Shown here in pieces: positions 25,457-63,739 of a DNA stretch of 64,000 nucleotides; the first letter of the stretch is position 1, and each line of letters starts with the position of its first letter. Made by a program: the position numbers and the translations under genes. The DNA is from a virus: positions 51,224 to 115,223 of IMG/VR virus record IMGVR_UViG_3300009545_000018; one strand, 5' to 3'. The notes beneath the pieces were generated by a model. The model was not told the origin of the DNA. It ran no database searches and worked only from the letters and a program-made list of their open reading frames with translations.

Positions 25457-27075
25457 TGTCAGAAGAATCCCTTATAGAAACCCGTCGCCAGAAGCATATT
25501 AAAGCTAATGGTGGAACTTACCCCATTGCTAATGATAGTAATTCAATTGATGATATCATTGGGCATAATTTAATTATGCGGTTTAAACAACCAGAATCTG
25601 ACATTAAAACAACTATCTGCTTCTCTGATTTAGAAGGAGAAGAACTCGTTAAGGTTCATGGCAGACTAACCAGTATCAGAAATACTGGCGGCATTACTTT
25701 TCTTAAAATTAAAGATAATACTGGTGCAATACAAATAATTGTTTCAAAAAAAGAATTATCTAATTATAAAGATTTAGCTAATTTAGATTTAGGCGACATT
25801 GTTGAAGTCGAAGGTAAAGTGGTTTTTTCTAAGACCAAAGAATTATCGGTTCTTATGTCTAGCTGGATCTTATTGTCTAAAGCTATTAGACCTTTACCAG
25901 AAAAATATCATGGCATTACAGATGTAGAATTAAAATATCGCAAGAGATATCTAGATTTAATTTGTTCGGATGAGTCAAGAGAGATCTTTAAATTAAGGTC
26001 ACTTGTTATTTCTTCCATAAGAAATTTTTTAATTCAGGACGGTTTTATGGAAGTAGAGACTCCAACATTAAATATAGTTAATAGTGGGGCTAATGCCAAA
26101 CCATTCCAGACACACCACAATTCTTTAGATATGGATCTTAATTTGAGAATTGCTCCGGAGCTTAATCTCAAGCGATTAATTGTGGGAGGATTTGATAAAG
26201 TATTTGAAATTGGTAAGAATTTTCGTAATGAAGGGCTGTCTACTAGACATAATCCAGAATTTACTATGCTTGAATTTTATGAGGCTTATAGTAATTTTGG
26301 TAATTTAATAGATAAAACAATGCGGCTTTTCAATTATATTGAGGGTGATTTAGAAACTTACTATCAAAGTAAACCAGAAGAAAAAGTATTATTTGATAAA
26401 TGGAAAACTGCTCGCCCCTTTTCTTTTTCCTTTTGGAAAGAATTACCTATGTGGGATTTAGTACTTCATGCTTGTAATAAAGCAGAAATATTAATTCATC
26501 ACGGAATTCATCCTCTAGTAAAAGACAGCCCAACAGATGGTGCTCCTTTATTAGAAAGAATTAATTTAAATAATGAAAGATTATTAAAAATTGATTGGAA
26601 AGATTTGTTAGACAAATTAAATCTGGAAAAAGATAATGGTCAAATAATAGGATTATTATTTGAATATCTTGCTGAACCATTTCTTACTGAAGATTATAGA
26701 ACTGCTGATGGTACACATTCTTTGCCAGTCATTGTAACGCAATTCCCCACAGAGCTTTGTCCTTTAGCCAGAGCTTATGATAAAGCCCCAACATTATGTG
26801 AGCGTTTTGAGCTTTACATAGATGGCAAAGAAATTGCTAATGCCTTTCAAGAACTTAATGATCCAGTAGAACAAAGAAAAAGGTTTGATGAACAGCTAGT
26901 AAGCAATCAAAGAGATGCTATGGATATCGACAATGATTACATTGAAGCTTTAGAATATGGCATGCCTCCAACTGTTGGTTTGGGTCTAGGAATAGATCGT
27001 TTGGTAATGTTATTAACTAATTCATCATCCATTAAAGATGTAATTTTATTTCCTACAATGAAGCCATTAAAGTAA
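25456..27075 (+). CDS. lysS: lysyl-tRNA synthetase, class II
   Basis: Class II motif 2 FRNEGLSTRHNPEFTMLEFYEAY, motif 3 GLGIDRLVMLLT, N-terminal OB anticodon-binding region. Confidence 0.85.
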   Translation: MSEESLIETRRQKHIKANGGTYPIANDSNSIDDIIGHNLIMRFKQPESDIKTTICFSDLEGEELVKVHGRLTSIRNTGGITFLKIKDNTGAIQIIVSKKELSNYKDLANLDLGDIVEVEGKVVFSKTKELSVLMSSWILLSKAIRPLPEKYHGITDVELKYRKRYLDLICSDESREIFKLRSLVISSIRNFLIQDGFMEVETPTLNIVNSGANAKPFQTHHNSLDMDLNLRIAPELNLKRLIVGGFDKVFEIGKNFRNEGLSTRHNPEFTMLEFYEAYSNFGNLIDKTMRLFNYIEGDLETYYQSKPEEKVLFDKWKTARPFSFSFWKELPMWDLVLHACNKAEILIHHGIHPLVKDSPTDGAPLLERINLNNERLLKIDWKDLLDKLNLEKDNGQIIGLLFEYLAEPFLTEDYRTADGTHSLPVIVTQFPTELCPLARAYDKAPTLCERFELYIDGKEIANAFQELNDPVEQRKRFDEQLVSNQRDAMDIDNDYIEALEYGMPPTVGLGLGIDRLVMLLTNSSSIKDVILFPTMKPLK

Positions 27076-29116: not shown

Positions 29117-29740
29117 ATGGAATCAATGAAACAAAAAATCAGAACCATTCCTAATCTAGCTGATACTTCTCCTGCACATCTTTCTGCTATAGAAAAAGGA
29201 TTAGAACATTTTGGATCTTGGCAGTATAATGTAGAAGATAGATTTAAATCTTTGGCTCAAGAAGAAATTAAAGCAGAATTAAGGCGCACAGCTTTTCCAT
29301 ATGCTGTATTATTTGAACACCTCATTGGAGATTTTAATTTAGGAACTGGTATTAGAAATGCTAATGCCTTTAATGCCAGAGAAGTATTTTATCTCGGAAA
29401 TAAAAAATGGGATAAGCGAGGAGCTACTGGAGTATATAATTATACTGATATCACCTTTCTATCTACCATAGATGAAGTAATAGAGTTGCAATCTAAATAT
29501 ACTTTTATTGGAGTAGATAATGTTCCTGGAAGTATTCCGCTAAATGAAATAGAGTATCAACCAAACACTCTTTTTGTTTTTGGAGAAGAGGGGGTAGGTT
29601 TAACTCCTGCGATGCAATCTTTTTGTAAAAACATTGTTTACATTAAACAATACGGATCAGTAAGATCTTTGAATGTTGGAACTGCTAGTGGTATTATAAT
29701 GCATGATTTTGTCACCAGATTCAAACCACACAATTTATAA
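29117..29740 (+). CDS. SpoU/TrmH-family RNA 2'-O-methyltransferase-like
   Basis: VFGEEGVGLTP ... SLNVGTASGI motifs resemble SPOUT motifs 2/3. Confidence 0.5.
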   Translation: MESMKQKIRTIPNLADTSPAHLSAIEKGLEHFGSWQYNVEDRFKSLAQEEIKAELRRTAFPYAVLFEHLIGDFNLGTGIRNANAFNAREVFYLGNKKWDKRGATGVYNYTDITFLSTIDEVIELQSKYTFIGVDNVPGSIPLNEIEYQPNTLFVFGEEGVGLTPAMQSFCKNIVYIKQYGSVRSLNVGTASGIIMHDFVTRFKPHNL

Positions 29741-34861: not shown

Positions 34862-34952
34862 CTAATGTCGAGATGGCGAAAAGGTAAACGCGGAAGAATT
34901 ATGGGTATAATACATAATTCATCTGGGAAACTGTAATTATACTACATAACCC

Positions 34953-35255
34953 TTGCAGGTTCAAGTCCTTGCTCTCGACACCATAATGAATAAATATGAT
35001 AATGAATATTGGTCAATAATTGAAGAGGCTCAACTTTATTTAAATATAGATGTTCTTAATTATGCTAAAAATAATAAACATGGAGTTTTTTATCTTTATG
35101 AAAGTCCATGGACCGGAGAGCTAATAGCAAAATATGAAGATGATATATTTGAATTCCGATATTATAATGAATGGAAATATCTCATTAAATATAATAATGA
35201 GTTAATTTTTGAACAAGAATTAATTAAAAGAATAAAACTTATTGCCTTTATTTAA
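34953..35255 (+). CDS. small protein, KLKAF-tail family variant (KLIAFI)
   Basis: ORF track. Confidence 0.5.
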   Translation: MQVQVLALDTIMNKYDNEYWSIIEEAQLYLNIDVLNYAKNNKHGVFYLYESPWTGELIAKYEDDIFEFRYYNEWKYLIKYNNELIFEQELIKRIKLIAFI

Positions 35256-35864: not shown

Positions 35865-36476
35865 ATGCAAACATTAAAACTTATTCAACTTAATAATTGT
35901 CTAATTAATTATAAATTAGGAAAAGAAATTGGTTGTGGGGCTGATGGACAACTATTTGAACTTGCAGACTTTAAAGATAAAGTAATTAAGATATCAGTAA
36001 TATTTGATTTAGATTTTATTGGTAAAGATGTATTAAATAATAAATATGATGCATTTTCTAAAAACCTAAGTTATTTACAACAACACAATACTATTTTTGC
36101 AAAAGTCTTTGATTTTCAAAAGATTGGAATCTTTAAAAGATTATTCAATAACATAGATCAATATTATTTATTACATTATTGTGTAATGGAAAAATGCTTT
36201 AAGCTTACTGAAGATGAGAAAAAAGTATTTCATACAATTATTTCTCATGAAGATCGTGGAATAACAAAAAAATTTTCAACAGAAAAAATTGAAGAAATAT
36301 TATTTGGATTATCGCGGGGGCTTGACTTTGATTCTAAAAAGATTAAATTGTTTTATGAATCAGTGATGACATCACCCATTAAACATTTAGATTTGCATCC
36401 CAGAAATATTATGAAAGATATTAATGGGAATTTTAGATTAATAGATTTTGACCGAATTCAATTGGAGATTACATGA
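35865..36476 (+). CDS. protein-kinase-like (eukaryotic-like / aminoglycoside-phosphotransferase fold) protein
   Basis: Gly-rich loop GCGADGQ then K, catalytic-loop-like LDLHPRNIMKD and DFD. Confidence 0.5.
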   Translation: MQTLKLIQLNNCLINYKLGKEIGCGADGQLFELADFKDKVIKISVIFDLDFIGKDVLNNKYDAFSKNLSYLQQHNTIFAKVFDFQKIGIFKRLFNNIDQYYLLHYCVMEKCFKLTEDEKKVFHTIISHEDRGITKKFSTEKIEEILFGLSRGLDFDSKKIKLFYESVMTSPIKHLDLHPRNIMKDINGNFRLIDFDRIQLEIT

Positions 36477-36790
36477 AAGTTAATATTACATATTTAAAAA
36501 AACTAGTTGATCAATTAGAGACAGAGTTAAAGACGTCTGAAATGGATACTGGCACCGCACTCTCTAAAGAGGCTCAAGAAGCGCTAGAACATGAAAAACT
36601 AATTGCTTTGAATAAGGCGGGTGGCGTTTGTATGGGCATTTATCAAGAAGCTATAATGTTAGTCTCTGATATTCATAAAGTAGTAGCATCATCTTTTGGT
36701 CCTCCAAAATCATCAAAGGATGATGTTGTAGAGACTTTGTTGGGCTCCTTTAATAAATCATTTAAAGTTAATGGCGATAAAAATAATTAG
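36473..36790 (+). CDS. hypothetical protein
   Basis: ORF track. Confidence 0.45.
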   Translation: MKVNITYLKKLVDQLETELKTSEMDTGTALSKEAQEALEHEKLIALNKAGGVCMGIYQEAIMLVSDIHKVVASSFGPPKSSKDDVVETLLGSFNKSFKVNGDKNN

Positions 36791-48600: not shown

Positions 48601-50181
48601 TTGATTATGGTATCTAAAAATTTATTTAAGTCTACAGGTTCAGTTAAGAAAGCAATTAAACCAGTTAATGCTGTTAATAATGCGGGCGGTGTGGCTTATA
48701 CTATGGATGATAAGGCTGCCTTAGCGCAACTTGCCATGACTGGTTGTTTTAATGGAACTTATTATGTTGATGCTAAAGATCAACTTAATCAAGTTGTTGC
48801 TCTTGCTAATAAGCTTCCAGTAGAGTTCGTGGCAAAGTTAGCAGTATATGCTCGCCAAGAAGGTTTTATGAAGGATATGCCTGCAGTATTAGCCGCAGTT
48901 GTTGCTAGCAAAGATACTGTTCTTTTATCCAAGATCTTTCCAAAGGTTATTGATAATCCAAAAATGGTTCGTAACTTTGTACAAGTTATTCGTTCTGGAG
49001 TAACAGGCAGAAAAAGTTTGGGAACCCGTCCTAAGAAATTAATTCAAAATTATTTGAATTCATTAACTGATGAGCAGTTGTTTAAGGCTGATGTAGGTAA
49101 TAGCCCTTCATTACAAGATATTATTAAGTTAGCTCGTCCTAAGCCAGCTACTAAGAATCGCTCTGCTTTGTATGGTTATTTGCTAGACAAGGAATATAAT
49201 CCAGAAGACTTATGTTCCTTGGTTCAAGAGTTTGAATCTTTCAAAAAAGAAATGAGTTTGGATATTCCAAATGTTCCATTTCAAATGTTAACAGCTTTGC
49301 CATTAACTGATAAGCATTGGAGCAAGATTGCTGAAAATGCAACCTGGAATCAAACCAGAATGAATTTAAATACTTTTGCTCGTCATAAGGTATTTGAAGA
49401 TGCTACTACTTTAAACCTATTGGCTGAGAGATTAGCTGATTCTTCACAAATTGCAAAAGCAAAGGTATTCCCATATCAATTGTTTGCTGCATTTAAAAAT
49501 GTAACTGCAGATGTTCCTAAGAAATTAACTAATGCTTTACAAAAAGCAGCGGATGCTTCGCTGGAAAATATTCCAGCTATTGAAGGTGAAGTTCACGTTT
49601 TAGTTGATGTATCAGGCAGCATGAGTAGCCCAGTCACTGGTAATCGTGGTTTTGTCACTAGTACTATGCGTTGTATTGATGTAGCAGCCTTAATGGCTTC
49701 TGCATTAATGCGCAAGAATGAAGATACTAAGGTATATCCATTTGATACTAGAGTTCATAATCATTCATTGAATCCAATGGATTCAGTGATGACTAATGCG
49801 GCAACTCTTGCTGCATTTGGTGGTGGAGGAACTGATTGTGGTATGGCGTTAGAGAATTTAAATAAGCAGAAAGCCAAAGGCAATCTTGTTATTTATGTTT
49901 CTGATAATGAGTCTTGGGTAGATACTACTCCTAATTCCTATTATTCTCAAAGAGGTACTAAGGTAATGGAAGAGTGGAATAAATATAAAGCTCGTAATCC
50001 AAAAGCCAAATTGGTTTGTATTGATGTCACTCCTAATAAAACCACTCAAGCTCATAATAGAGAAGATATAATCAACATTGCAGGATTTTCTGATCAAGTA
50101 TTCGATGTTATTGCATTATTCCAAAAATTTGGCAATAATAAAGATCTTTGGGTTCAAACCATTGACTCAGTAGAAATGTAA
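48601..50181 (+). CDS. rsr: Ro60-like TROVE-domain protein with C-terminal vWA (MIDAS) domain (Rsr ortholog)
   Basis: N-terminal TROVE-like region (NAGGVAY...TGCFNGTYY), C-terminal MIDAS VLVDVSGSMS; 526 aa like bacterial Rsr; SD AAAGGAGATTGATTATG. Confidence 0.6.
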   Translation: MIMVSKNLFKSTGSVKKAIKPVNAVNNAGGVAYTMDDKAALAQLAMTGCFNGTYYVDAKDQLNQVVALANKLPVEFVAKLAVYARQEGFMKDMPAVLAAVVASKDTVLLSKIFPKVIDNPKMVRNFVQVIRSGVTGRKSLGTRPKKLIQNYLNSLTDEQLFKADVGNSPSLQDIIKLARPKPATKNRSALYGYLLDKEYNPEDLCSLVQEFESFKKEMSLDIPNVPFQMLTALPLTDKHWSKIAENATWNQTRMNLNTFARHKVFEDATTLNLLAERLADSSQIAKAKVFPYQLFAAFKNVTADVPKKLTNALQKAADASLENIPAIEGEVHVLVDVSGSMSSPVTGNRGFVTSTMRCIDVAALMASALMRKNEDTKVYPFDTRVHNHSLNPMDSVMTNAATLAAFGGGGTDCGMALENLNKQKAKGNLVIYVSDNESWVDTTPNSYYSQRGTKVMEEWNKYKARNPKAKLVCIDVTPNKTTQAHNREDIINIAGFSDQVFDVIALFQKFGNNKDLWVQTIDSVEM

Positions 50182-55603: not shown

Positions 55604-55947
55604 TGACAACAGAAGAAGATTTTAGAAAAAGTTTATCTTGTATTATTGAAAAATTTGGTCCAGAACATTTTAGTGTTATTTTAACAATTGCACAAAATTC
55701 AAGCTTTTATTTTAAAAGTAAAAATATGTTATTAATACCATTTAAATCTAATTCTTCGTTTAAAAGAGTAAATGTTAAATATGAGGAGTGTGCCGCTGTT
55801 GTATGGAAAAATTATGCTAATCATAAATATTTTCCATTTCCTCCAGATTGTGATGATTGGTATTGTATGCTTGGTGATTCTTTTGAAAGTATACTAACTC
55901 TGTATAATGTTGGTAGCAAAATGATAAAAATGAAAGCTTTTATATAA
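55604..55947 (+). CDS. small protein, KLKAF-tail family (KMKAFI)
   Basis: Start at the ATG following the upstream TAA (TAATG); the track start is inside the previous gene. Confidence 0.5.
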
Positions 55948-56441
55948 TGACAATTGGAATATTTGCTGGCAGTTTTGATCCTATTACTTTAGGGCATTTA
56001 GATATTATAAATCGTAGTTTAACTTTTTTAGATAAATTAATAGTGTTAATAGCAGTTAACCCAAATAAGAAAACCACTTTCTCTTTAAATAAAAGAAAAT
56101 CTTTAATTATAGAGAGTCTTTTCGAAACATCAACGAGATCTGCAGATGTTATAGTGGATTCATATGATGGATTGGTTGTTAATTATGCTAAGTTACATGG
56201 AGCTTCAGTTTTGATTAGAGGTGTTCGTACCTCAACAGATTTTGAATATGAAACTAATTTAGCTAATGGTAATAGATTATTAGCACCAGAGATTGAAACT
56301 GTCTTTATACCAACTCGTCCAGAATTATCTGTAGTATCTTCTTCCATGGCTAAAGAAATTAATAAATGGAATGGTGATGTATCTAAATTAGTTACAGTTA
56401 AAGTTAAAAATGCTCTGAATGAAATTGTGAGTTTAAAATGA
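55947..56441 (+). CDS. coaD: phosphopantetheine adenylyltransferase
   Basis: N-terminal GIFAGSFDPITLGHLDII (T/HxGH nucleotidyltransferase motif of CoaD), about 160 aa. Confidence 0.85.
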   Translation: MTIGIFAGSFDPITLGHLDIINRSLTFLDKLIVLIAVNPNKKTTFSLNKRKSLIIESLFETSTRSADVIVDSYDGLVVNYAKLHGASVLIRGVRTSTDFEYETNLANGNRLLAPEIETVFIPTRPELSVVSSSMAKEINKWNGDVSKLVTVKVKNALNEIVSLK

Positions 56442-56989: not shown

Positions 56990-57079
56990 GGGGAAGTAGC
57001 TCAGCCGGCCAGAGCGCTTTACTGTTTTATAAAACGAATAGTGAAGAGGTCGATGGTTCAAATCCATCCTTCCCCACCA
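56990..57079 (+). tRNA. tRNA-like gene (90 nt, CCA encoded) with canonical acceptor, D and T arms but a 20-nt anticodon loop
   Basis: GGGGAAG/CTTCCCC acceptor, D arm GCTC-AGCCGGCCA-GAGC, T arm GATGG-TTCAAAT-CCATC, variable AGGTC; anticodon stem CTTTA/TGAAG enclosing CTGTTTTATAAAACGAATAG. Confidence 0.5.
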
Positions 57080-57156
57080 TGAATCAAATGCAGATAAGAT
57101 TACATTTAACAGTTAATTAAAAAAGCATCTTATCAATAATTTGTTGATTCATTTAA

Positions 57157-57430: not shown

Positions 57431-58399
57431 TTGAACTGTTATATATTCTGTATGATTGTCATACAGAAACGATCTTTTTCTTTAGAAGAGTTAAGAGAAA
57501 TATTCAAAAGTTCATTGTCAAAGCAAGATGTTGCCATAAAGTTAGGTTTTACTTATAGTAATGGGAAAGTTTATAAAAAAATTGAGAAACTTTCTATTGA
57601 ATATAATTTATCGACGGATCATTTTGATCCATTTTTAAGTCAAAGATTAAATACAAAATTTCCTAAAATAGAAAAAGAATGTCCTATATGCGGTAATTTA
57701 TTTGAAACTAAACATGGACATCGTGATGAAAAAATTACTTGCTCAATATCATGCTCTAATACTTATTTTGCTCCTAGTAAACACACTGAATTATCAAATT
57801 TAAAAAGATCGTTAAAGCTTTTAAAAAATTCAAAAAATGAAACTGTCAATATAATAAAAGTTCGTAAAAAACGTAAAAAGAATTTTAAATTAAAAGCTGT
57901 TGTTTTATATATTAAGTCTTGTGAATTTTGTGATTATGATTTTGAAACTTATAATAAAAATAAAAGATTTTGCAATATATCATGTCAAATCAAACATAAT
58001 TGGGAAGATCCCAATTATCGTATTAATATTATAAATAAAGCTAATGAAAGAGTTACAAATGGAACCCATAATGGGTGGTCATCAAGATCAAAACTAAAAC
58101 CTTCTTATGCTGAACAATATGTTATCAATCTTTTAGATGAGTTAAAAATAACAAATATTACTCGAGAATACAAAATTAACAAATGGTTTATTGATTTTGC
58201 TGATATAGATAGAAAATTAGCTTTAGAAATAGATGGTAAACAACATGAATTACCAGAACGTAAGGCTTCGGATCAAGTTAAAGATCAATATTTAAAAGAT
58301 AATGGTTGGACCATTTTAAGAATAAAATGGAAAAAGATAACAGCAGAATTTAGAGAAGAATTAATAAAAGTTTTGCAAAATTTCACAAGGATCATATAA
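57431..58399 (+). CDS. homing-endonuclease-like protein: N-terminal zinc-finger/DNA-binding region plus C-terminal DUF559 (Vsr-like PD-(D/E)XK) nuclease domain
   Basis: C-terminal KWFIDFADIDRKLALEIDGKQHE...DQ..D..L...GW.ILRI pattern typical of DUF559; several CxxC pairs upstream; embedded in the tRNA region. Confidence 0.5.
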   Translation: MNCYIFCMIVIQKRSFSLEELREIFKSSLSKQDVAIKLGFTYSNGKVYKKIEKLSIEYNLSTDHFDPFLSQRLNTKFPKIEKECPICGNLFETKHGHRDEKITCSISCSNTYFAPSKHTELSNLKRSLKLLKNSKNETVNIIKVRKKRKKNFKLKAVVLYIKSCEFCDYDFETYNKNKRFCNISCQIKHNWEDPNYRINIINKANERVTNGTHNGWSSRSKLKPSYAEQYVINLLDELKITNITREYKINKWFIDFADIDRKLALEIDGKQHELPERKASDQVKDQYLKDNGWTILRIKWKKITAEFREELIKVLQNFTRII

Positions 58400-58830: not shown

Positions 58831-58992
58831 ATGAACGAAATAACTGATTTAAAACCGTATTTAAAATATAACAATGGCGTGGTTACCGTCTTGAAGGTAT
58901 TAGCCTTCCCATTAAACTGGGTAGCTGATGTATTCGAAAATTGGAGTCGCAAGCGCACACAAAAGAAATGTGAAAAGTGGCTATCTGAATAA
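58831..58992 (+). CDS. small (53 aa) hypothetical protein
   Basis: SD AAAGGAAAACACAACATG; followed by a hairpin terminator; below the track cutoff. Confidence 0.35.
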   Translation: MNEITDLKPYLKYNNGVVTVLKVLAFPLNWVADVFENWSRKRTQKKCEKWLSE

Positions 58993-58997
58993 TTTTA

Positions 58998-59020
58998 TAC
59001 TACTAGAGTAGTATTCTTTT
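58998..59020 (+). terminator. rho-independent terminator (TACTAC-TAGA-GTAGTA then TTCTTTT)
   Basis: Inverted repeat plus T-run right after the small ORF. Confidence 0.5.
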
Positions 59021-59096
59021 ATCTATACTGGTTGAGTTACCCAGCTAAAATATAAACTTCCAGGCACGGTAGCCTGGTTAATCAAAACCGATTTAT

Positions 59097-59174
59097 AGGC
59101 TTCTAGCTTAACTTTTAGAGCAAGGGACATAAAGAGTCCCGTGGATCTTGGTGTAAATCCAAGGGAGCCTGCCA
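59097..59174 (+). tRNA. tRNA-like gene (CCA encoded) with unusual anticodon loop ATAAAGA and T loop TGTAAAT
   Basis: Acceptor AGGCTTC/GGAGCCT, D arm GCTT...GAGC, anticodon stem GGGAC/GTCCC, T stem CTTGG/CCAAG, G-CCA. Confidence 0.45.
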
Positions 59175-59179
59175 TTTAT

Positions 59180-59261
59180 TGCGGGGTAGAGGAGTATGGT
59201 TATCTCACCAGCCTCATAAGCTGTGGTATACGTGGGTTCAAATCCCACCCTTCCGCAACCA
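59180..59261 (+). tRNA. tRNA with CAU anticodon (Met/fMet/Ile2-type), CCA encoded, slightly oversized D loop and variable region
   Basis: Acceptor TGCGGGG/TTCCGCA, anticodon loop CTCATAA, T arm GTGGG-TTCAAAT-CCCAC. Confidence 0.5.
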
Positions 59262-59329
59262 CTGGATGGTGGTTACCAAATCCGCAAAGGGGTATAGAAA
59301 TATACTCGGAGGATTGAATCCACTATTAT

Positions 59330-59464
59330 GCAATTCTGGTATAATGGCATTACTGACTCTAAAAAGAGTATCACTTACAAAGAAACCTGTGAGGCTACCA
59401 GGAAATTATTGTAAGAATAACGCCTTGCCTGGCGTAGATGTTGGTTCGATTCCAACGGATTGCA
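59330..59464 (+). ncRNA. extended tRNA-like element (135 nt): canonical acceptor and T arm flanking a roughly 60-nt internal insertion
   Basis: 5' GCAATTC pairs with 3' GGATTGC directly after T arm GTTGG-TTCGATT-CCAAC; internal hairpins ACTCT-AAAA-AGAGT and ACGCC-TTGCCT-GGCGT. Confidence 0.4.
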
Positions 59465-59469
59465 TTAAG

Positions 59470-59558
59470 TGATGTTTGATAAGTAATCACGCCAGAAACA
59501 TGATTTATCATGTTTGCCCTGATCAGCCTGGTAGTTAGGTGCAAATCCTAAGCATCAC
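59470..59558 (+). ncRNA. tRNA-like element (about 89 nt) with D-loop-like AGCCTGGTAG sequence and TGCAAAT loop
   Basis: 5' GTGATGT pairs with 3' GCATCAC flanking a TTAGG-TGCAAAT-CCTAA arm. Confidence 0.35.
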
Positions 59559-59925
59559 AACAACTGAGTTTATATGCCCGAATCCCTATATTGGTTAAGA
59601 CATATAGACAATAGTCCGGTCTTAGGCTACCATTAAGGAGTAATCCTTTTAGAGACCACTGCTTCGGTGTGGGCAAACCCGGCATTTAGGTGGAAAGCCT
59701 AATAAATTTTGCTTGATTAAATAGTTTCTTGCTACAAGATCAACGGTGTACAACGAATCTTGCTATTTAATTGGGAAGTCTTATAATTGTGGACTTGGTG
59801 AAACAGGTATAAGGCGAATTACGCTCGATATTGGATAAAACTAACATTGGGCGCCATGAATCAAATCCGTATAGGAATACATTCGGAAAAAATAAATCTT
59901 ATACACTACTTGTTGATTCAATTAT

Positions 59926-60002
59926 TGTCGATTAGCTCATCGTTAGAGCGCCCGGCCGTAAGAGTCTGGAGGTACTAGGTTCAATTCCTAGATCGACAAC
60001 CA
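59926..60002 (+). tRNA. tRNA-like gene (77 nt, CCA encoded) with an irregular, enlarged anticodon arm
   Basis: Acceptor TGTCGAT/ATCGACA, D arm GCTC-ATCGTTA-GAGC, T arm CTAGG-TTCAATT-CCTAG; anticodon region CCCGGCCGTAAGAGTCTGG does not give a 5-bp/7-nt arm. Confidence 0.45.
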
Positions 60003-60242
60003 TGTAACAAATGCCAGGGCAGCATTACATTTATTGGAATTAAATCCGATGAGGCTCGACTCCTCTTAAGGTCCGGTGACAGGCAAAACATGTTGCTCAT
60101 TATTTGTTGTTACAAATTTTTGACAGTATATCTAAACTGTATAGTGTGAGTTATGCGCAAGGGATAATTACCTAAGTAGCAACTATAGGTTTGCTAGTTA
60201 ATCCTACACATGAATCAGAGTTAACCTGAAAACTAGCACAAT

Positions 60243-60316
60243 GCGAGTATGGCATAATGGTTGTGTCCCATGTTTCCAACTTGGTTATCTCAGTTCGATT
60301 CTGAGTACTCGCTCCA
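60243..60316 (+). tRNA. tRNA-Gly (anticodon UCC), CCA encoded
   Basis: Acceptor GCGAGTA/TACTCGC, anticodon loop TTTCCAA (stem with one U-U), T arm CTCAG-TTCGATT-CTGAG. Confidence 0.55.
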
Positions 60317-60394
60317 TGCCCACTAACTTAATTACATAAAAGTAAGGTTGTCGGGGCGCCAAATTTACGTTCTGGTCGTCTAAATAATTAGGAC

Positions 60395-60450
60395 ATCTCC
60401 GCGAAAGGGGAAGATATTGGAGAATTACCAATCTGGAGCGCCATAAGTTA
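60395..60450 (+). repeat. copy A of an about 60-75 nt structured repeat (GGACATCTCC...GGAGAATTACCAA...GCGCCA)
   Basis: About 80% identical to copy B at 60553-60608, same order of hairpins TTGG-AGAATTR-CCAA. Confidence 0.5.
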
Positions 60451-60552
60451 GTGGCTGGAAATCATTTAAGCGAGTTCAAATGCAATAACAGTCCGCCTAA
60501 TTGCTCGTATATTAGGTAACTTAATTTTATGCCCCTGTCGTCGTAAAAAGTC

Positions 60553-60608
60553 AGGACATCTCCAGTAATAGGAGAAGATGTTGGAGAATTGCCAACTGGG
60601 GGTGCCAA
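60553..60608 (+). repeat. copy B of the structured repeat
   Basis: Direct comparison with copy A. Confidence 0.5.
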
Positions 60609-61007
60609 AGGCAAGTAAGGACCAGGAAGCCTTATGAGCTGCTGGTTTTTCATATAGGGAACTAGCCTGGTTAGTCCTATATGAGAACCAACCAATGTCT
60701 TTAAATAAAGAAATTTATATAAGGACACCATGATTAATTTGTGCAGCTGACTTATATTGGATTTCGCGATCTGATATATGAGTGCTGGAAAATACGGAAA
60801 GTTGGAAAACTGATGCACACCGTATAAGTTAACTAAATCACTAACTGTTATTATCTACGCGAATAGATAAAAACAAAGTAATTAGTTAATTATAATTAAT
60901 CAAAAACTTTAGCAAATGCAGTAAGGATTACATTGGTTATAGTCAATCGAAAGATTGATGGTGGGTATCGATTCCCACAGTATCTTTACAAAACTTGTTG
61001 CTATTAT

Positions 61008-61144
61008 TCCGAGGTACGTCTAATGGTAAGACACGCGGCTGTGGGAACTATAGGTTAATAATAAGTCCCGTTCGATTCGGGCAGTTCCAAGAATAACCGC
61101 GCGGTGGTAACACTTTGTAGGTTCGAGTCCTACCCTCGGAGCCA
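61008..61144 (+). ncRNA. extended tRNA-like gene (137 nt, CCA encoded): tRNA-His-like (GUG) frame with a roughly 51-nt insertion in the anticodon loop containing its own mini T-arm-like hairpin
   Basis: Acceptor TCCGAGG/CCTCGGA perfect, T arm GTAGG-TTCGAGT-CCTAC, anticodon stem CGCGG/CCGCG enclosing CTGTGGG + GAACTATAGG...CCCGTTCGATTCGGG... Confidence 0.45.
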
Positions 61145-61334
61145 TTATATTAAATAAAAGGAAAGTACTATGCAAGTTCAAATACATCTTTACAATCAAT
61201 CCAATCCTATTGTGTTGGAACATGTAACTAATGCTTATCAAAAAGGTGATTTTTATTGTGTTATGTTTGCTAGTAAACTAGTTCAAAAGTTTCCAATTCA
61301 ACATATATTTAGAATAATAGAAACTCCTTAATGT

Positions 61335-61610
61335 ATGATTTCAAAATTAACAATCAAATCTTATGGAGTGACAGTAACTCTTCCCAGTGAAATTCTAATT
61401 TTAGAAGATTGTATCTGGGCTAAAACTGGTGAACATTTAGCTTTAGGAAAAGACAAAAATATTATGGGTAATGATTGTTTTATTGTCCTTAGAAAAAACG
61501 GAGTTGTTATTTCTGGACCTTCTCCTTTAATTCATTCGGTTGGAGCAAATAGTTTAATTTATCAAGAGTGTTCGGTAGAAAAATATTATAAAATGAAAGC
61601 ATTTTTGTAA
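61335..61610 (+). CDS. small protein, KLKAF-tail family (KMKAFL)
   Basis: ORF track. Confidence 0.55.
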   Translation: MISKLTIKSYGVTVTLPSEILILEDCIWAKTGEHLALGKDKNIMGNDCFIVLRKNGVVISGPSPLIHSVGANSLIYQECSVEKYYKMKAFL

Positions 61611-61879
61611 TGATCAAATATGTTGATGATAACGGTAAAGAAAAAATTTTACCTGAAAAAATAGTTATACTAAAATGTCCTGATAGTTGGCTTATTGAGC
61701 CTGGAGATTATATAGAATTTATTCATACATATTATCTTCATATGAGGATCTCCAGCTTTGAAATCAAAGTTTTAAAAGGATATCATAAGAATAAAATATT
61801 TGATTTACTCTTTAGTCATTTATCTAAGATTGAATATGTAAGCATAGAAAAGTTTGAAAAACTAAAGGCGTTTGTTTAA
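61610..61879 (+). CDS. small protein, KLKAF-tail family (KLKAFV; codons CTA/AAG/GCG)
   Basis: ORF track. Confidence 0.55.
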   Translation: MIKYVDDNGKEKILPEKIVILKCPDSWLIEPGDYIEFIHTYYLHMRISSFEIKVLKGYHKNKIFDLLFSHLSKIEYVSIEKFEKLKAFV

Positions 61880-62107
61880 ATGGAAACCAAGTGGATTTTA
61901 GTAACACAACAAAACTCTGTTTACTATAATAAAATCTTAGAATTAAAAGAAGGTTGGACATCAACCATTTATAATGGGACTATTGTTTGGTTTATTGAGT
62001 CAGTAAATGGTCAAGTTAGACATTATCCGGATTGGTTTGAGTTAAACGATTTGCCAACACATACAGTAGTAACAAAGGATGCCCTTAATTTATTAGCCTT
62101 TTTATAA
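61880..62107 (+). CDS. small protein, KLKAF-tail family variant (NLLAFL)
   Basis: ORF track. Confidence 0.5.
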   Translation: METKWILVTQQNSVYYNKILELKEGWTSTIYNGTIVWFIESVNGQVRHYPDWFELNDLPTHTVVTKDALNLLAFL

Positions 62108-62486
62108 AAAACTTTAGATGAATGCCGCAATGGAATACATATACAACCGATAGCTGAATGTCGCAAGACATTCAATATCTCCGATTTCATAAAAGAGATA
62201 TGAACCAACCTAAAGGAATTCCTATAAGGATAAACTATGTGACTGACAAACTTGAAGCCAGTTAAAGCTCAAGTCCTCTATGGTATTATTAGGATAAGAT
62301 ATACTGTGCTATTGGATAAAATTAATCGCACTTTCTATTGCATTCTTGTCATCTAATTAACTTTTCATTTAAATGAATGCCGATTCGGGAATACATTAAA
62401 CACAAAGATACTGCAGCATGTGCCAGGCTAATCCACATGTACCTTAGGAGTACTCAGGGTAAAGTGTACCGACTTCTCAATCACCT

Positions 62487-62786
62487 TTGTCATTTAACAT
62501 GAATTACTTAAAACACACATTAGATAACGGCACAGTATTAGAAATACCAGAAGAATTTATGGTATTAGATAATTTACCATCAGAAGATCTACATTACAAA
62601 GTAGAATTAATTCTTGATTTTATTAGAGGCTGGGTATTTAAAATAACCCATATAAATGGTTTAGAACTAACTCAATATAAAGAAGATCCAACATGGATTT
62701 GTTATTTTAGTCCAGAAAAGATTTTTAATAAAAAAATTATACCATGTTCACTTGAAAAATTTAACAATATGAAAGCATTTTTATAA
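62487..62786 (+). CDS. small protein, KLKAF-tail family (NMKAFL)
   Basis: ORF track. Confidence 0.55.
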   Translation: MSFNMNYLKHTLDNGTVLEIPEEFMVLDNLPSEDLHYKVELILDFIRGWVFKITHINGLELTQYKEDPTWICYFSPEKIFNKKIIPCSLEKFNNMKAFL

Positions 62787-62980
62787 TGTCAAAAGAAGAA
62801 AAACCATTATCACCTTATGAGATAAGAAGATTAGGTCATTGCAAAGAAACAGAGCAGTGTGTTGATGATCTATATTGTAATTGTCCTTGTTTACCTTGTT
62901 CTAAGCAAGATTGTTTTAGACCAGGATGTAAATGTGGTAGAACTCATCCATATAAAAATTAATGTACTTACATATCCATG
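62786..62980 (+). CDS. small (64 aa) Cys-rich protein (CxxxxxC...CNCPCLPC...CFRPGCKCG)
   Basis: Manual translation from the ATG overlapping the upstream TAA (TAATG); not in the supplied ORF track, so possibly a reading error. Confidence 0.35.
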
Positions 62981-63231
62981 ATAAAGATGTTCCATCTTCT
63001 ATTTTAGTTTTAGAAGACTCAAAAACTCACACCATTGAAAAGAATTCTCATTTTGTTTTTAGAAAAATTAAGTATAATGAATATTGTGTTGATTTTTTTA
63101 ATGGTAAAGATAATCGTTATTCTTATGCAAGATATTCAGAAGATGATTTATATCGTATGTTTTTTGATGGCAAATTAAAATATAAAGAATTTTCTTTAGC
63201 CCAGTTTAATAAAATAAAAGCATTTTTATGA
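62962..63231 (+). CDS. small protein, KLKAF-tail family (KIKAFL)
   Basis: ORF track. Confidence 0.55.
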   Translation: MYLHIHDKDVPSSILVLEDSKTHTIEKNSHFVFRKIKYNEYCVDFFNGKDNRYSYARYSEDDLYRMFFDGKLKYKEFSLAQFNKIKAFL

Positions 63232-63494
63232 AATATTATATTATTGAGGATACAGTAGTTCCAAGTGAGTTCATTATAATTCATGATACAGATTTATGTA
63301 GAATTTATAATATTTATCCAGAGTTTAATAGAAATATTTATACTCATAAGAATTTTTTTGATTATATAAGCTACGATCTTGATTATAATTTTATTTCGAT
63401 TGCTACCATGCCAGGCAGTCAATTACTAAGTTATATTGATAATAATAAGTTATTTCCAATAGAAAAGTTTAATAGTTTAAAGGCTTTCTTATGA
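63228..63494 (+). CDS. small protein, KLKAF-tail family (SLKAFL)
   Basis: ORF track. Confidence 0.55.
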   Translation: MKYYIIEDTVVPSEFIIIHDTDLCRIYNIYPEFNRNIYTHKNFFDYISYDLDYNFISIATMPGSQLLSYIDNNKLFPIEKFNSLKAFL

Positions 63495-63739
63495 AATATA
63501 TTCAAACTGCTAAATATAATTATCCAGAAGAAATATTTGTAACACAAAGTTTCTTTAGACACGAGTGGACTAATAAACACTTGGTATTAAAACAATATAA
63601 TGAATATGTATTAAGTGTATTTTTAATAAATGGGGAAGAGCCCTCACATCCAATGGCTATTACCAATAATTTCATTCATGAGGCTAATTTTTTAGAAATG
63701 TCTTTAGAAAGATATTTAAAGATTAAATCTTTCTTATAA
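63491..63739 (+). CDS. small protein, KLKAF-tail family (KIKSFL)
   Basis: ORF track. Confidence 0.55.
   Translation: MKYIQTAKYNYPEEIFVTQSFFRHEWTNKHLVLKQYNEYVLSVFLINGEEPSHPMAITNNFIHEANFLEMSLERYLKIKSFL

What the first reader, a model, noticed from the sequence alone, without database searches (positions are those of the whole stretch)
58990..61330. 2.3-kb non-coding island packed with tRNAs, oversized tRNA-like elements and structured repeats; possible Y-RNA-like (YrlA-type) partners for the encoded Ro60
Between the small ORF ending at 58992 and the KLKAF array restarting at 61335, no credible + strand ORF exists. Instead there is a run of T-arm/acceptor-stem signatures. Canonical or near-canonical tRNAs lie at 59097, 59180 (CAU), 59926 and 60243 (Gly-UCC). 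Several elements (59330-59464, 59470-59558, 61008-61144) have perfect 7-bp acceptor stems and TTCGANT T arms but are 90-137 nt long, because 50-60 nt are inserted at or before the anticodon arm. In the 61008 element, His-like CUGUG is followed by an insert that itself forms a mini T-arm CCCG-TTCGATT-CGGG. Short tRNA introns of this size are not expected in phage. tRNA-mimicking modules joined to an extra stem are, however, the defining architecture of bacterial and phage Y RNAs (YrlA), which are bound by Ro60/Rsr. An Rsr ortholog is encoded in this same window at 48601-50181. The island also has GC-rich nested helices at 59600-59705 (GGTCT...AGACC enclosing AAGGA-GTAA-TCCTT; TAGGCT...AGCCTA) and a GGTCCGG element at 60070.
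Basis: partly seen in the sequence, partly recalled or inferred. Interest (0 to 1): 0.85.

Follow-up and report, generated by a model that had tools for sequence, protein, structure and literature searches.

The report
Phage tRNA array interleaved with Y-RNAs

Summary
The island is real. 58993-61169 has no credible gene. ARAGORN calls four tRNAs, and two oversized tRNA-shaped genes (59329-59465, 61008-61144) are supported by intron-mode ARAGORN and by 11 compensatory base-pair changes, with no broken pair, against a related contig. The Y-RNA idea is partly right but attached to the wrong elements. The oversized elements end in an acceptor stem, lack the Y-RNA motifs, and match neither Rfam YrlA nor my own models. 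The spacers do match: 59856-59921, 60002-60115 and 60907-61006, plus 57079-57152, 62113-62357 and 62368-62498 outside the stated range. Each has stem, AAUGC loop, stem, UUACAU, a variable tip, stem, ANNNYUUGU loop, stem. This is the Ro-binding half of YrlA. Rfam YrlA hits elements with the same terminal motifs inside the tRNA arrays of three related Rsr phages. A covariance model found 43 copies in 545 kb of Rsr loci and none in 497 kb of controls, with strong covariation. The oversized tRNA-likes are best read as tRNA-framed structured RNAs that do not decode; splicing is not excluded. Rsr binding is inferred, not shown. Verdict: a new variant of a known kind, of moderate-to-high interest.

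The parts
57079..57152 (+). Y-RNA-like module W1 (mini, YrlB-like hairpin). Layout: ATGAATCA / AATGC / GATAAGAT-TACA ... ATCTTATC / AATAATTTGT / TGATTCAT. It starts at the CCA of the tRNA-like 56990-57079 and ends 5 nt before tRNA-Tyr.
   Evidence: R1 66.9 bits and R2 64.4 bits. It is a seed member. The MFE fold equals the model structure.
59097..59174 (+). tRNA-like gene 'A' (ARAGORN: Phe-AAA). It forms a cloverleaf with an encoded CCA. The elbow is non-canonical: the D loop has no GG and the T loop is UGUAAAU. The anticodon loop differs in every orthologue.
   Evidence: ARAGORN; MFE is a cloverleaf; no Rfam tRNA hit; alignment A6.
59180..59256 (+). tRNA-Met (CAU). It is 95-98% identical in L107 and L109.
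   Evidence: ARAGORN; Rfam 40 bits; blastn.
59329..59465 (+). Oversized tRNA-shaped RNA 'C' (137 nt). It has an 8-bp acceptor stem, a D arm and a canonical T arm. [quoted passage not shown]
   Evidence: ARAGORN -i; fold z = -3.3. Against L109 7660-7798, 38 pairs split as 28 same, 3 one-sided, 7 double changes and 0 broken. The insert is 76/81 identical against 40/56 for the frame.
59470..59558 (+). Possible tRNA-like element 'D' (acceptor GUGAUGU/GCAUCAC, T loop UGCAAAU, long hairpin in place of the anticodon arm). Weakly supported.
   Evidence: Read by eye. Fold z = -1.6. No tool calls it, and blastn finds no counterpart in L109.
59856..59921 (+). Y-RNA-like module W2 (mini; AAUCC variant of the loop, also present in L107 11428-11494). 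It starts at the CCA of a 12-bp minihelix (59822-59855) and ends 4 nt before the tRNA-like at 59926.
   Evidence: R1 64 bits and R2 62 bits; MFE fold; L107 copy.
59926..60002 (+). tRNA-like gene (ARAGORN: Leu-UAA, with G at position 33). The acceptor stem and T arm match L109 and the D arm nearly so, but the anticodon arm is different.
   Evidence: ARAGORN; Rfam 44.5 bits; alignment A9.
60002..60115 (+). Y-RNA-like module W3. Its tip holds a V-like hairpin and a T-arm-like hairpin (GAGG-CUCGACU-CCUC). It starts at the CCA of 59926-60002.
   Evidence: Not in the seed. R1 26.6-37.7 bits; R2 49.1 bits, E 4e-10; MFE fold. Orthologues are L107 11873-11985 and L109 8597-8709.
60243..60316 (+). tRNA-Gly (UCC), canonical.
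   Evidence: ARAGORN; Rfam 53.2 bits.
60369..60443 (+). tRNA-like gene E1. It forms a cloverleaf ending in G-CCA, with an invariant non-canonical T loop AGAAUUA and anticodon loop GCGAAAG.
   Evidence: Only ARAGORN in mitochondrial mode calls it. Consensus fold with its paralogue and orthologues.
60531..60607 (+). tRNA-like gene E2, a paralogue of E1. T loop AGAAUUG, anticodon loop AGUAAUA; the orthologues have 10-nt loops.
   Evidence: MFE is a cloverleaf. RNAalifold on 4 sequences shows compensatory changes.
60608..60906 (+). Conserved structured RNA of about 300 nt and unknown kind, between E2 and W4.
   Evidence: 77-80% identical to L109 and L107 by blastn, with indels that are not multiples of three. 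RNAalifold finds 21 pairs with double changes in 3 sequences. No Rfam hit.
60907..61006 (+). Y-RNA-like module W4. Its tip holds a V hairpin (GUCAAUC-GAAA-GAUUGAU) and a T arm (GUGGG-UAUCGAUU-CCCAC). It ends 1 nt before the 61008 element.
   Evidence: Not in the seed. R1 37.5 bits, E 3e-7; R2 48.5 bits; fold z = -2.8 and the MFE equals the model structure.
61008..61144 (+). Oversized tRNA-shaped RNA (137 nt). It has a tRNA frame with G73 and CCA. The anticodon loop carries a 51-nt insert (helix GGAACU/AGUUCC enclosing a mini T arm). An extra GNRA-capped variable hairpin is also present.
   Evidence: Rfam tRNA 39.3 bits; ARAGORN -i. Against L109 9388-9524, 39 pairs split as 34 same, 1 one-sided, 4 double and 0 broken. 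L107 has a plain tRNA-Asn(GUU) at this site.
62113..62357 (+). Y-RNA-like module with a tip domain of about 190 nt, in a non-coding gap of the small-ORF array.
   Evidence: R2 36.1 bits, E 1e-6; fold z = -3.7 and the MFE keeps both stems.
62368..62498 (+). Y-RNA-like module with a tip domain of about 65 nt.
   Evidence: R2 39.2 bits, E 1.5e-7; the MFE keeps both stems.
48601..50181 (+). Rsr / Ro60 orthologue, the presumed protein partner. It is on the same strand, 6.9-12.3 kb upstream of the modules.
   Evidence: Pfam vWA_Ro60 and TROVE. NCBIfam Rsr model matched over its whole length but far below its cut-off (55.8 bits against 900). 50% identical to the TROVE protein of Myxococcus phage Mx1.

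Best explanation
The island is part of one long same-strand array of small RNA genes in a giant phage (at least 448 kb, about 30% GC). The array alternates three kinds of unit.

(1) Ordinary tRNAs (Met-CAU and Gly-UCC here; Tyr, Pro, Asp and Ile nearby).

(2) tRNA-shaped RNAs that keep the acceptor stem, D arm, T arm and usually an encoded CCA. Their anticodon arm is hypervariable, capped by a tetraloop, or greatly expanded.

(3) Y-RNA-like hairpins. Each has a terminal helix, a conserved asymmetric internal loop (5' AAUGC, 3' ANNNYUUGU), a second helix, UUACAU and a variable tip. The tip is nothing, a T arm only, or a full tRNA-like domain.

Shown: the structures, their conservation and covariation, and the sharing of these terminal motifs with Rfam-recognised YrlA elements in related Rsr phages.

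Inferred: the array is transcribed as precursors. The tRNA-shaped units act as processing marks. RNase P cuts at each 5' end. The preceding CCA end abuts the Y stem. Cleavage at these marks releases Y-like RNAs of about 65-245 nt. These bind the phage Rsr through the AAUGC-loop helix and, as for bacterial and Thermus-phage Ro60-Y RNPs, recruit host PNPase or other nucleases to remodel structured RNA during infection.

The tRNA frame is kept by compensatory change. The insert is at least as conserved as the frame, and clearly more so in 59329-59465. The insert is therefore probably the working part, and the frame gives processing and stability. They probably do not decode.
For: Island anatomy.

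Y-like family:
- Seed alignment A4 has a covariation score of 0.613 against 0.26 in shuffles (0/500) and 0.11-0.20 when slid.
- R1 finds 43 hits at E<=1e-3 in 545 kb of Rsr loci, all on the Rsr strand.
- On those 43, all 17 pairs show double changes, and the four inner pairs of the terminal helix are 98-100% paired with 2-5 pair types each.
- R1 finds 0 hits at E<=1 in 497 kb of control contigs.
- W3 and W4 were not in the seed and score E of 2e-4 to 3e-7. R2 adds 62113-62357 and 62368-62498.
- MFE folds reproduce stem / loop / stem.

Link to YrlA:
- Rfam RF02553 hits L001 8610-8742 (42.9 bits, E 3e-6), L002 17042-17104 (28.2 bits; this element is also an R1 seed member) and Mx1 255-383 (32 bits). 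All three lie inside tRNA arrays.
- Their termini read ..CRAAUGC..YUACAU ... UUUGUYG.., like the Rfam consensus cggCgaAUGC..CUAc ... AaAcUuGucGccg.
- Just past the window end the same phage has a module whose fold shows V, T, acceptor-like and D arms (L024 16242-16392).
- 21 of 43 modules start within a few bases of a CCA.

Literature:
- Bacteria have two or more Y RNAs, one with a tRNA-like domain and one hairpin type. M. smegmatis YrlB has only a T arm. Yrn2 is co-transcribed with tRNA-Asp. RNase P cleaves M. smegmatis YrlA in vitro (PMC4201824).
- Thermus phage Ro60 binds two phage Y-like RNAs and host PNPase (PMC12135203).

Oversized elements: 11 double compensatory changes and 0 broken pairs. 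Inserts are 91-94% identical, against 71-89% for the frames.

Anticodon arms are not conserved while frames are, in the 56990, 59097, 59926 and E families.
Against: - No Rfam YrlA or Y_RNA hit anywhere in the window (E<=1 for the whole window, E<=10 for the island), nor on the full-length-looking element past the window end.
- The strict GNCGAA(N)G motif is not present in the first four window copies (AUCAAAUGC, AACAAAUGC, AGCAAAUGC, and AUCAAAUCC in W2); only the AAUG(C) half is kept, and W2 changes that too.
- The modules lie 6.9-12.3 kb from rsr, beyond the 4 kb used by Chen et al.
- R1 does not detect the mycobacteriophage YrlA, or the long L001 and Mx1 versions as whole hits. The link to YrlA therefore rests on shared motifs and on one element hit by both models.
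- The controls were mostly cellular contigs, not tRNA arrays of phages that lack Rsr.
- Nothing here shows transcription, processing or Rsr binding.
- For the oversized elements only two sequences exist, and a function for the inserts is not identified.
Confidence: 0.62

Rival explanations
1. One reading: the oversized tRNA-like elements (59330-59464, 59470-59558, 61008-61144) are themselves YrlA-type Y RNAs bound by Rsr.
For: They combine a tRNA-like body with an extra helix. The extended anticodon arm of 61008-61144 has a helix / asymmetric loop (4 x 8 nt) / helix / T-arm tip layout that resembles a Y module in outline. Rsr is encoded in the window.
Against: The topology is opposite to YrlA: an open acceptor stem, with CCA on 61008-61144, and a closed distal stem. 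AAUGC, UUACAU and UUUGU are absent in either orientation. There is no Rfam YrlA hit at E<=10 and no R1 or R2 hit with filters off. Modules carrying the YrlA-type motifs lie next to them.
Confidence: 0.08
2. The oversized elements are genuine intron-containing tRNA genes. The insert is cut out and the halves are joined by a phage or host endonuclease and RNA ligase, giving a decoding tRNA such as tRNA-Asn(GUU) from 61008-61144.
For: Removing the insert between CUGU and UAA recreates a canonical CUGUUAA loop. G73 and CCA are as expected for tRNA-Asn in E. coli (my own recollection of its identity elements, not checked here). L107 has an uninterrupted tRNA-Asn(GUU) at the same site. No other tRNA-Asn is seen in the window or 6 kb beyond it. 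The anticodon stem is kept by a compensatory change.
Against: At 51 nt the insert is far too small for a group I intron, and there is no ribozyme hit. By eye there is no canonical bulge-helix-bulge. None of the 35 window ORFs scanned is a splicing endonuclease, RtcB, Rnl or PNK. The element also has a second expansion, a variable hairpin, that splicing would not remove. 59329-59465 has no position where excision leaves a 7-nt anticodon loop with a stem. In the 56990 family the same excision would give different anticodons in close relatives, Ile against Val. The inserts are as conserved as, or more conserved than, the frames.
Confidence: 0.15
3. The spacer hairpins are only processing or termination hairpins of a tRNA operon, or selfish repeats, with no link to Rsr. 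Their resemblance to YrlA termini is coincidental or vestigial.
For: No Rfam hit in the window. The strict GNCGAA motif is missing. They are farther than 4 kb from rsr. Binding is untested.
Against: Single-stranded motifs (AAUGC, UUACAU, YUUGU) stay the same across phages from 22% to 59% GC while both helices covary. That pattern suggests recognition by a protein, not a simple hairpin. All 43 hits are in Rsr loci and on the Rsr strand, with none in the controls. Versions range from hairpin only to a full YrlA-like form that Rfam recognises.
Confidence: 0.15
4. The odd tRNA-like genes are decaying pseudogenes hit by insertions.
For: Non-canonical loops, missing anticodons, and several paralogues.
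Against: There are zero broken pairs and 11 double compensatory changes in the two oversized elements. Frames and T loops are conserved in four lineages. Encoded CCA ends are kept.
Confidence: 0.07

Closest known systems
Bacterial and phage Y RNAs of the YrlA/YrlB type (Rfam RF02553; Chen et al. 2014, PMC4201824)
   Same: A terminal helix formed by the 5' and 3' ends. An internal loop with ..AAUGC on the 5' strand and A-rich..UUGU on the 3' strand. A second helix followed by YUAC. An optional V, T, acceptor-like and D tRNA-like domain in the tip. Several Y RNAs per genome, one hairpin type and one with a T arm only. Co-transcription with a tRNA is known for D. radiodurans Yrn2. Same strand as rsr.
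   Different: At least 8 copies in about 7.7 kb, not 1-4. They are interleaved one-to-one with tRNA or tRNA-like genes and abut their CCA ends. They lie 7-15 kb from rsr. In this AT-rich lineage the G-C pairs of the GNCG part are replaced by A-U pairs (AUCA, AACA, AGCA). They are invisible to the Rfam model.
Thermus phage phiLo Ro60 with Yrl1 and Yrl2 (PMC12135203)
   Same: A phage-encoded Ro60 with phage-encoded Y-like RNAs. The proposed role is hijacking host PNPase.
   Different: phiLo has two Yrls directly upstream of the gene and no tRNA array context. Its Ro60 is only about 26% identical to this one over 65% of its length.
T4 tRNA gene cluster with its stable RNAs (species 1 and 2, rnaC and rnaD) and the segB homing endonuclease (from my own knowledge, not checked here)
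   Same: A phage tRNA cluster that also encodes stable non-tRNA small RNAs released by tRNA-processing enzymes. A homing-type endonuclease gene is inserted in the cluster (here DUF559, 57431-58399).
   Different: I know of no link between the T4 RNAs and Ro60, nor of the AAUGC architecture in them.
Phage tRNAs with anticodon-loop changes that evade host anticodon nucleases (van den Berg et al. 2023, PMC10264068; title and abstract start seen, paper not read)
   Same: Phage tRNA arrays in which the anticodon loop is the part that varies.
   Different: Here the changes remove the anticodon altogether (tetraloop caps, 8-10 nt loops, 50-80 nt inserts), which is not compatible with simple evasion while still decoding.
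Engineered 'tRNA scaffold' RNAs (Ponchon and Dardel; from my own knowledge)
   Same: A foreign structured RNA placed in the anticodon arm of a tRNA, so that the frame gives correct processing and nuclease resistance.
   Different: That is a laboratory design. I know of no natural phage counterpart.

Membership tests
YrlA/YrlB-type Y RNA - tested on the spacer modules (57079-57152, 59856-59921, 60002-60115, 60907-61006, 62113-62357, 62368-62498) | 5' and 3' ends pair in a helix interrupted by an internal loop, followed by a second helix | tested here: met
   Covariation in both helices: 17/17 pairs with double changes, score 0.749 against 0.254 in shuffles, 0/500. MFE folds agree.
YrlA/YrlB-type Y RNA - spacer modules | GNCGAA(N0-1)G motif near the 5' end (presumed Rsr contact) | tested here: inconclusive
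   The AAUG(C) half is kept in five of six window copies (W2 has AAUCC). The GNCG half lies in the covarying helix and reads AUCA, AACA, AGCA or (A/G)AUG here. Relatives read GGCG, GCCG, GUCG, GCUG or GGCA. The strict motif is not met in the first four window copies.
YrlA/YrlB-type Y RNA - spacer modules | Conserved YUAY after the second helix | tested here: met
   UUAC or AUAC in all six window copies; [CU]UACA in the family.
YrlA/YrlB-type Y RNA - spacer modules | tRNA-like domain (V, T, acceptor-like and D arms) in the tip (defines YrlA, not YrlB) | tested here: not met
   W1 and W2 have none. W3 and W4 have V plus a T arm only, like M. smegmatis YrlB. The two downstream copies show none of these arms in their folds. 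The full set is seen only in L024 16242-16392, about 640 nt past the window end.
YrlA/YrlB-type Y RNA - spacer modules | Encoded within about 4 kb of rsr on the same strand (criterion of Chen et al. 2014) | tested here: not met
   Same strand, but 6.9-12.3 kb downstream of the rsr stop. The Rfam-hit copies in L001, L002 and Mx1 are also 5.5-11.6 kb away.
YrlA/YrlB-type Y RNA - spacer modules | Reaches the Rfam RF02553 gathering score (69 bits) | tested here: not met
   No hit at E<=10 in the island or E<=1 in the window. The positive controls also stay below it (mycobacteriophage 28.8, Mx1 32, L001 42.9 bits), so the threshold is not informative for phages.
YrlA/YrlB-type Y RNA - spacer modules | Bound by Rsr/Ro60 in vivo | not testable with these tools
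   Needs Rsr pull-down or CLIP from infected cells.
YrlA-type Y RNA - tested on the oversized tRNA-likes (59329-59465, 61008-61144) | Ends in the Ro-binding helix; acceptor-like stem closed by a loop; AAUGC/GNCGAA and YUAC motifs | tested here: not met
   The ends lie in an open acceptor stem (with CCA on 61008-61144), and the motifs are absent. No Rfam, R1 or R2 hit.
Canonical elongator tRNA - oversized elements | Acceptor, D and T arms with conserved loops | tested here: met
   ARAGORN -i. Rfam tRNA 39.3 bits for 61008-61144 and 33.8 bits for the L109 orthologue of 59329-59465. Compensatory changes.
Canonical elongator tRNA - oversized elements | 5-bp anticodon stem with a 7-nt loop (U33, purine 37) | tested here: not met
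   The loop is interrupted by 51 nt in 61008-61144. In 59329-59465 the D-to-T region holds three hairpins with 4-, 9- and 6-nt loops.
Group I intron in a tRNA gene | Intron of at least 200 nt with the P1-P9 ribozyme core | tested here: not met
   Inserts are 44-54 nt. No Intron_gpI or other ribozyme hit at E<=10.
Protein-spliced (archaeal or eukaryal type) tRNA intron | Bulge-helix-bulge at the exon-intron borders and a splicing endonuclease plus ligase | tested here: inconclusive
   The predicted fold gives a 3-bp helix with 1-nt and 4-nt bulges, not the 3-4-3 pattern. No such enzyme is among the 35 window ORFs scanned. Only 64 kb of a genome of at least 448 kb was seen.

The most novel reading that the evidence does not exclude
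The oversized tRNA-shaped genes are a natural 'tRNA scaffold' system, or else a non-group-I tRNA splicing system in a phage. In the scaffold reading, the phage uses tRNA frames to process, stabilise and perhaps CCA-tag structured RNA inserts. Those inserts act with the Rsr-Y RNP array on host tRNA or RNA-repair and defence pathways. In the stronger splicing version, the 51-nt insert of 61008-61144 is excised and the halves are ligated to give tRNA-Asn. As far as I know, that would be the first protein-dependent tRNA splicing described in a bacterial virus.
Probability: 0.15. Interest if true: 0.85.

Novelty: new variant of a known kind. Interest (0 to 1): 0.62.

Why it matters
Ro60 and Y RNAs are conserved from bacteria to humans, yet the role of the tRNA-like part of bacterial Y RNAs is still unclear. 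What phages do with their own Ro60 has only begun to be studied (one structural paper, 2025).

This phage lineage shows that Y-type RNAs can be amplified to eight or more copies and wired into a tRNA array. The tips form a graded series, from bare hairpin to T arm only to full tRNA mimic. Anticodon-less tRNA-shaped RNAs sit beside them.

That gives three things. First, a natural series for asking which parts of a Y RNA matter. Second, a concrete set of RNAs to test for Rsr and PNPase binding. Third, a search model that finds copies the Rfam family misses; it could be used to re-annotate 'spacers' in giant-phage tRNA arrays.

It also warns that 'tRNA counts' in giant phages include many genes that probably cannot decode.

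Tried and rejected
- Phage database searches by DNA found no relative.
- IMG/VR scans with the 134-aa flanking ORF and with a 24-mer of the 61008 element found nothing.
- The single metagenome scan, made with the CoaD-like protein, returned only relatives of 52% identity or less. Two of these (L027, L028) carried Y-like modules, but none carried the oversized elements.
- Rsr-anchored IMG/VR loci share almost no DNA similarity with the island. They proved useful only later, for the Y-module family.
- Rfam scans found no tmRNA, group I intron, ribozyme or Y_RNA family in the island.
- A circularly permuted YrlA reading of the oversized elements was checked by eye and rejected, because the loop motifs are absent.
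- Looking for splicing or RNA-repair enzymes among 35 window ORFs found none.
- A MAFFT alignment of 13 full-length YrlA-like elements (A10) was too poor at the 3' end to build a model, so I did not.
- R1 hit 36447-36515 (24.9 bits), but it overlaps coding sequence and folds worse than shuffles (z = +0.8), so I treat it as false.
- The last Rfam search, on the flank past the window, did not recognise the full-length-looking element L024 16242-16392.

Full report
**What the window is.** All large ORFs lie on the + strand and G+C is about 30%. No phage in the INPHARED collection is close at the DNA level. An identical stretch lies on a 152-kb Logan contig. One window protein occurs on a contig of 447,763 bp, so this is a giant phage. 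The ORF at 48601-50181 is a Ro60/Rsr orthologue: Pfam vWA_Ro60 1.4e-15 and TROVE 7e-8, and 50% identity to the TROVE protein of Myxococcus phage Mx1. A PARG-like protein and a VWA protein follow it, in an order conserved in relatives.

**Checking the observation.**
- Between the stop at 58992 and the 53-aa ORF at 61170-61331 there is no credible gene. That ORF is a called gene in the source record, so the island ends near 61169, not 61330.
- ARAGORN finds tRNAs at 59097, 59180 (CAU), 59926 and 60243 (Gly-UCC). Rfam tRNA confirms the last three.
- With introns allowed, ARAGORN adds 59329-59465 and 61008-61144, and also 56990-57079 upstream.
- Rfam tRNA aligns 61008-61141 at 39.3 bits with a 54-nt insert in the anticodon loop and a 13-nt variable region.
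- 59470-59558 is not called by any tool, has a UGCAAAU T loop and folds with z = -1.6.
- The helices at 59600-59705 fold no better than shuffles and have no blastn counterpart in relatives.

**Finding relatives.** Rsr-anchored loci from IMG/VR (L001-L023, 43-68% protein identity) all carry tRNA arrays near rsr but share almost no DNA similarity with the island. Homologues of the CoaD-like protein at 55947-56441 led to three contigs, L107, L109 and L110. Their arrays match the island at 75-98% DNA identity.

**The oversized tRNA-like elements are real, constrained RNAs.**
- Against L109, 61008-61144 keeps all 39 predicted pairs: 34 unchanged, 1 one-sided change, 4 double compensatory changes in the acceptor, anticodon and T stems, and none broken.
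- 59329-59465 keeps all 38 pairs: 28 unchanged, 3 one-sided, 7 double, none broken.
- The inserts are at least as conserved as the frames. For 61008-61144 it is 52/57 against 71/80. For 59329-59465 it is 76/81 against 40/56.
- In L107 the site of 61008-61144 holds an ordinary 76-nt tRNA-Asn(GUU). Deleting the insert between CUGU and UAA would restore CUGUUAA.
- The element also has a second expansion, a GNRA-capped variable hairpin.
- 59329-59465 has three hairpins between the D and T arms and no 7-nt loop.

**Other tRNA-shaped genes show the same pattern.** In these genes the frame is conserved and the anticodon arm is not.
- The 56990 family has a tetraloop-capped extension whose notional anticodon differs between close relatives.
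- The 59097 family has loops AUAAAGA, GUUAAAGA, AUUCGAA and others.
- 59926 has a frame almost unchanged in L109 but a different anticodon arm.
- The paralogues 60369-60443 and 60531-60607 have an invariant odd T loop (AGAAUUR) and loops of 7-10 nt.
- A third oversized element lies at 34867-34983.
- None of the 35 window ORFs scanned is an RNA ligase, kinase-phosphatase or splicing endonuclease.

**Testing the Y-RNA interpretation.** Rfam contains YrlA (RF02553). As a positive control it hits a mycobacteriophage just upstream of its Ro gene (28.8 bits) and Mx1 (32 bits, full length). It finds nothing in the island at E<=10 or in the window at E<=1. In the two closest IMG/VR relatives it does hit, and inside the tRNA island: L001 8610-8742 (42.9 bits, E 3e-6) and L002 17042-17104 (28.2 bits).

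Those elements begin, right after a tRNA CCA, with [helix]-AAUGC-[helix]-UUACAU. They end with [helix]-ANNNYUUGU-[helix]. The repeated 'spacers' of the window's array have exactly this form.

YrlA as described has its ends in the Ro-binding helix, which carries GNCGAA(N)G. After a conserved YUAY come V, T, acceptor-like and D arms (PMC4201824). The Rfam consensus reads cggCgaAUGC..CUAc ... AaAcUuGucGccg.

**The module family.**
- A seed of 20 short copies gave a two-helix structure with a covariation score of 0.613, against 0.26 in shuffles (0/500) and 0.11-0.20 when slid.
- The covariance model R1 found W3 (60002-60115) and W4 (60907-61006), which were not in the seed, at E of 2e-4 to 3e-7.
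- R1 found 43 copies at E<=1e-3 in 545 kb of Rsr loci, all on the Rsr strand.
- It found none at E<=1 in 497 kb of control contigs.
- On the 43 copies every one of the 17 pairs shows double changes. The four inner pairs of the terminal helix are 98-100% paired with 2-5 pair types each.
- A second model built from those 43 (R2) found six copies in the window: 57079-57152, 59856-59921, 60002-60115, 60907-61006, 62113-62357 and 62368-62498.
- Two more lie just past the window end: L024 15895-15966, and L024 16242-16392 whose fold shows V, T, acceptor-like and D arms. Rfam does not recognise the latter.
- MFE folds of all six reproduce stem / loop / stem.
- Half of all copies, and most in this clade, start at a CCA. 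In the window, three of the four copies in or beside the island end 1-5 nt before the next tRNA-like 5' end.

**What follows.** The island is an array of tRNAs, tRNA-shaped RNAs and Y-like RNAs. The Y-like modules match what is known of bacterial Y RNAs: several per genome, hairpin-only and T-arm-only forms beside a tRNA-like form, co-transcription with a tRNA, and RNase P sensitivity (PMC4201824). A phage Ro60 has been shown to bind phage Y-like RNAs and host PNPase (PMC12135203).

That these modules bind this phage's Rsr, and that the tRNA-shaped units serve as processing marks, is inference from position and homology. The strict GNCGAA motif is not kept in this AT-rich lineage: the G-C pairs of the helix have become A-U. 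The modules are also farther from rsr than the 4 kb used in the original survey. These are the main reasons for caution.

**The oversized elements.** They are not Y RNAs. Their topology is the reverse of YrlA, the motifs are absent in either orientation, and no model hits them. Frame stems are kept by compensation and inserts are near-invariant. They carry a second expansion. Related families lack a consistent anticodon. I therefore read them as tRNA-framed structured RNAs that do not decode.

A spliced tRNA-Asn is not excluded for 61008-61144 (about 15%). It would need machinery I did not find in the 64 kb available.

**Novelty.** Phage Y-like RNAs and phage Ro60 are known. I did not find the following described in the papers I searched and read: amplification to eight or more copies, strict interleaving with tRNA-shaped genes, the graded tips, a motif variant that Rfam cannot see, and the accompanying anticodon-less or expanded tRNA-shaped RNAs. 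I rate it a new variant of a known kind.

Noticed in passing
window 60608-60906: A conserved non-coding stretch of about 300 nt between a tRNA-like gene and Y-like module W4. It is 77-80% identical in L109 and L107 by blastn, with 1-3 nt indels. RNAalifold predicts a multi-helix structure, with 21 pairs showing double compensatory changes among three sequences, including a long-range closing helix. It matches no Rfam family. The 118-aa minus-strand ORF over it is probably spurious.
   Followed up: partly
window 34867-34983: A third oversized tRNA-shaped element (117 nt), far from the island. It has a 7-bp acceptor stem, CCA, a T arm, a long anticodon arm and an extra hairpin. Rfam tRNA scores it 28.4 bits, and its fold z is -3.1.
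   Followed up: partly
window 56990-57079 (with L110 909-998, L107 9114-9204, L109 6370-6456, L002 16959-17041): A very good tRNA frame (Rfam 47-60 bits) whose anticodon loop is replaced by a tetraloop-capped hairpin. In all five lineages it is directly followed by a mini Y-like module. The two might stay joined as one RNA, because the Y stem starts at the CCA.
   Followed up: partly
L024 15895-15966 and 16242-16392 (about 290 and 640 nt past the window's 3' end): Two further Y-like modules of the same phage. The second folds with V, T (GAAAG-UUCGAUU-CUUUC), acceptor-like and D arms, which is the full YrlA layout, yet Rfam YrlA does not hit it at E<=1.
   Followed up: partly
window 57431-58399: A DUF559 / MTES_1575-type endonuclease gene, with two small ORFs after it, splits the small-RNA array. 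It is present in L107 but not at that place in L109. It looks like a homing-type insertion, as segB is in the T4 tRNA cluster.
   Followed up: no
L001-L012, L026 (e.g. L009 12004-13819, L012 11598-16685, L008 8021-8970): By a regular-expression scan, other Rsr-encoding giant phages carry up to about 12 candidate Y-like modules in tandem. Many have full tRNA-like tips. G+C ranges from 30% to 59%, and the AAUGC, UACAU and UUGU motifs are unchanged.
   Followed up: partly
window 25456-27075, 29117-29740, 2549-3148, 55947-56441, 15064-16233: The phage encodes a lysyl-tRNA synthetase (NCBIfam lysS, 504 bits), a SpoU-type 2'-O-methyltransferase, and CoA-pathway enzymes (CoaE and two CoaD-like cytidylyltransferase-fold proteins).
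   Followed up: partly
window 59822-59855: A 12-bp hairpin ending in CCA (fold z = -4.1). It looks like a tRNA acceptor/T-arm minihelix and sits directly before Y-like module W2. It is not conserved in L109.
   Followed up: no
L109 7430-7507: The orthologue of the 59097 tRNA-like gene has an 8-nt anticodon loop (ARAGORN 'taaa'). Other orthologues have UCG or other loops, so the anticodon arm of this gene changes faster than its frame.
   Followed up: no
window 61335-63500: An array of small paralogous ORFs ending in ..K(L/M)KAF(L/V). The 3' ends of four copies are similar at the DNA level (repeat family D1). The array is interrupted at 62108-62498 by the two Y-like modules.
   Followed up: no
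window 36447-36515: A weak hit of the Y-module models (24.9 and 18.9 bits) across an ORF junction. It folds worse than shuffles and is probably a false positive.
   Followed up: yes
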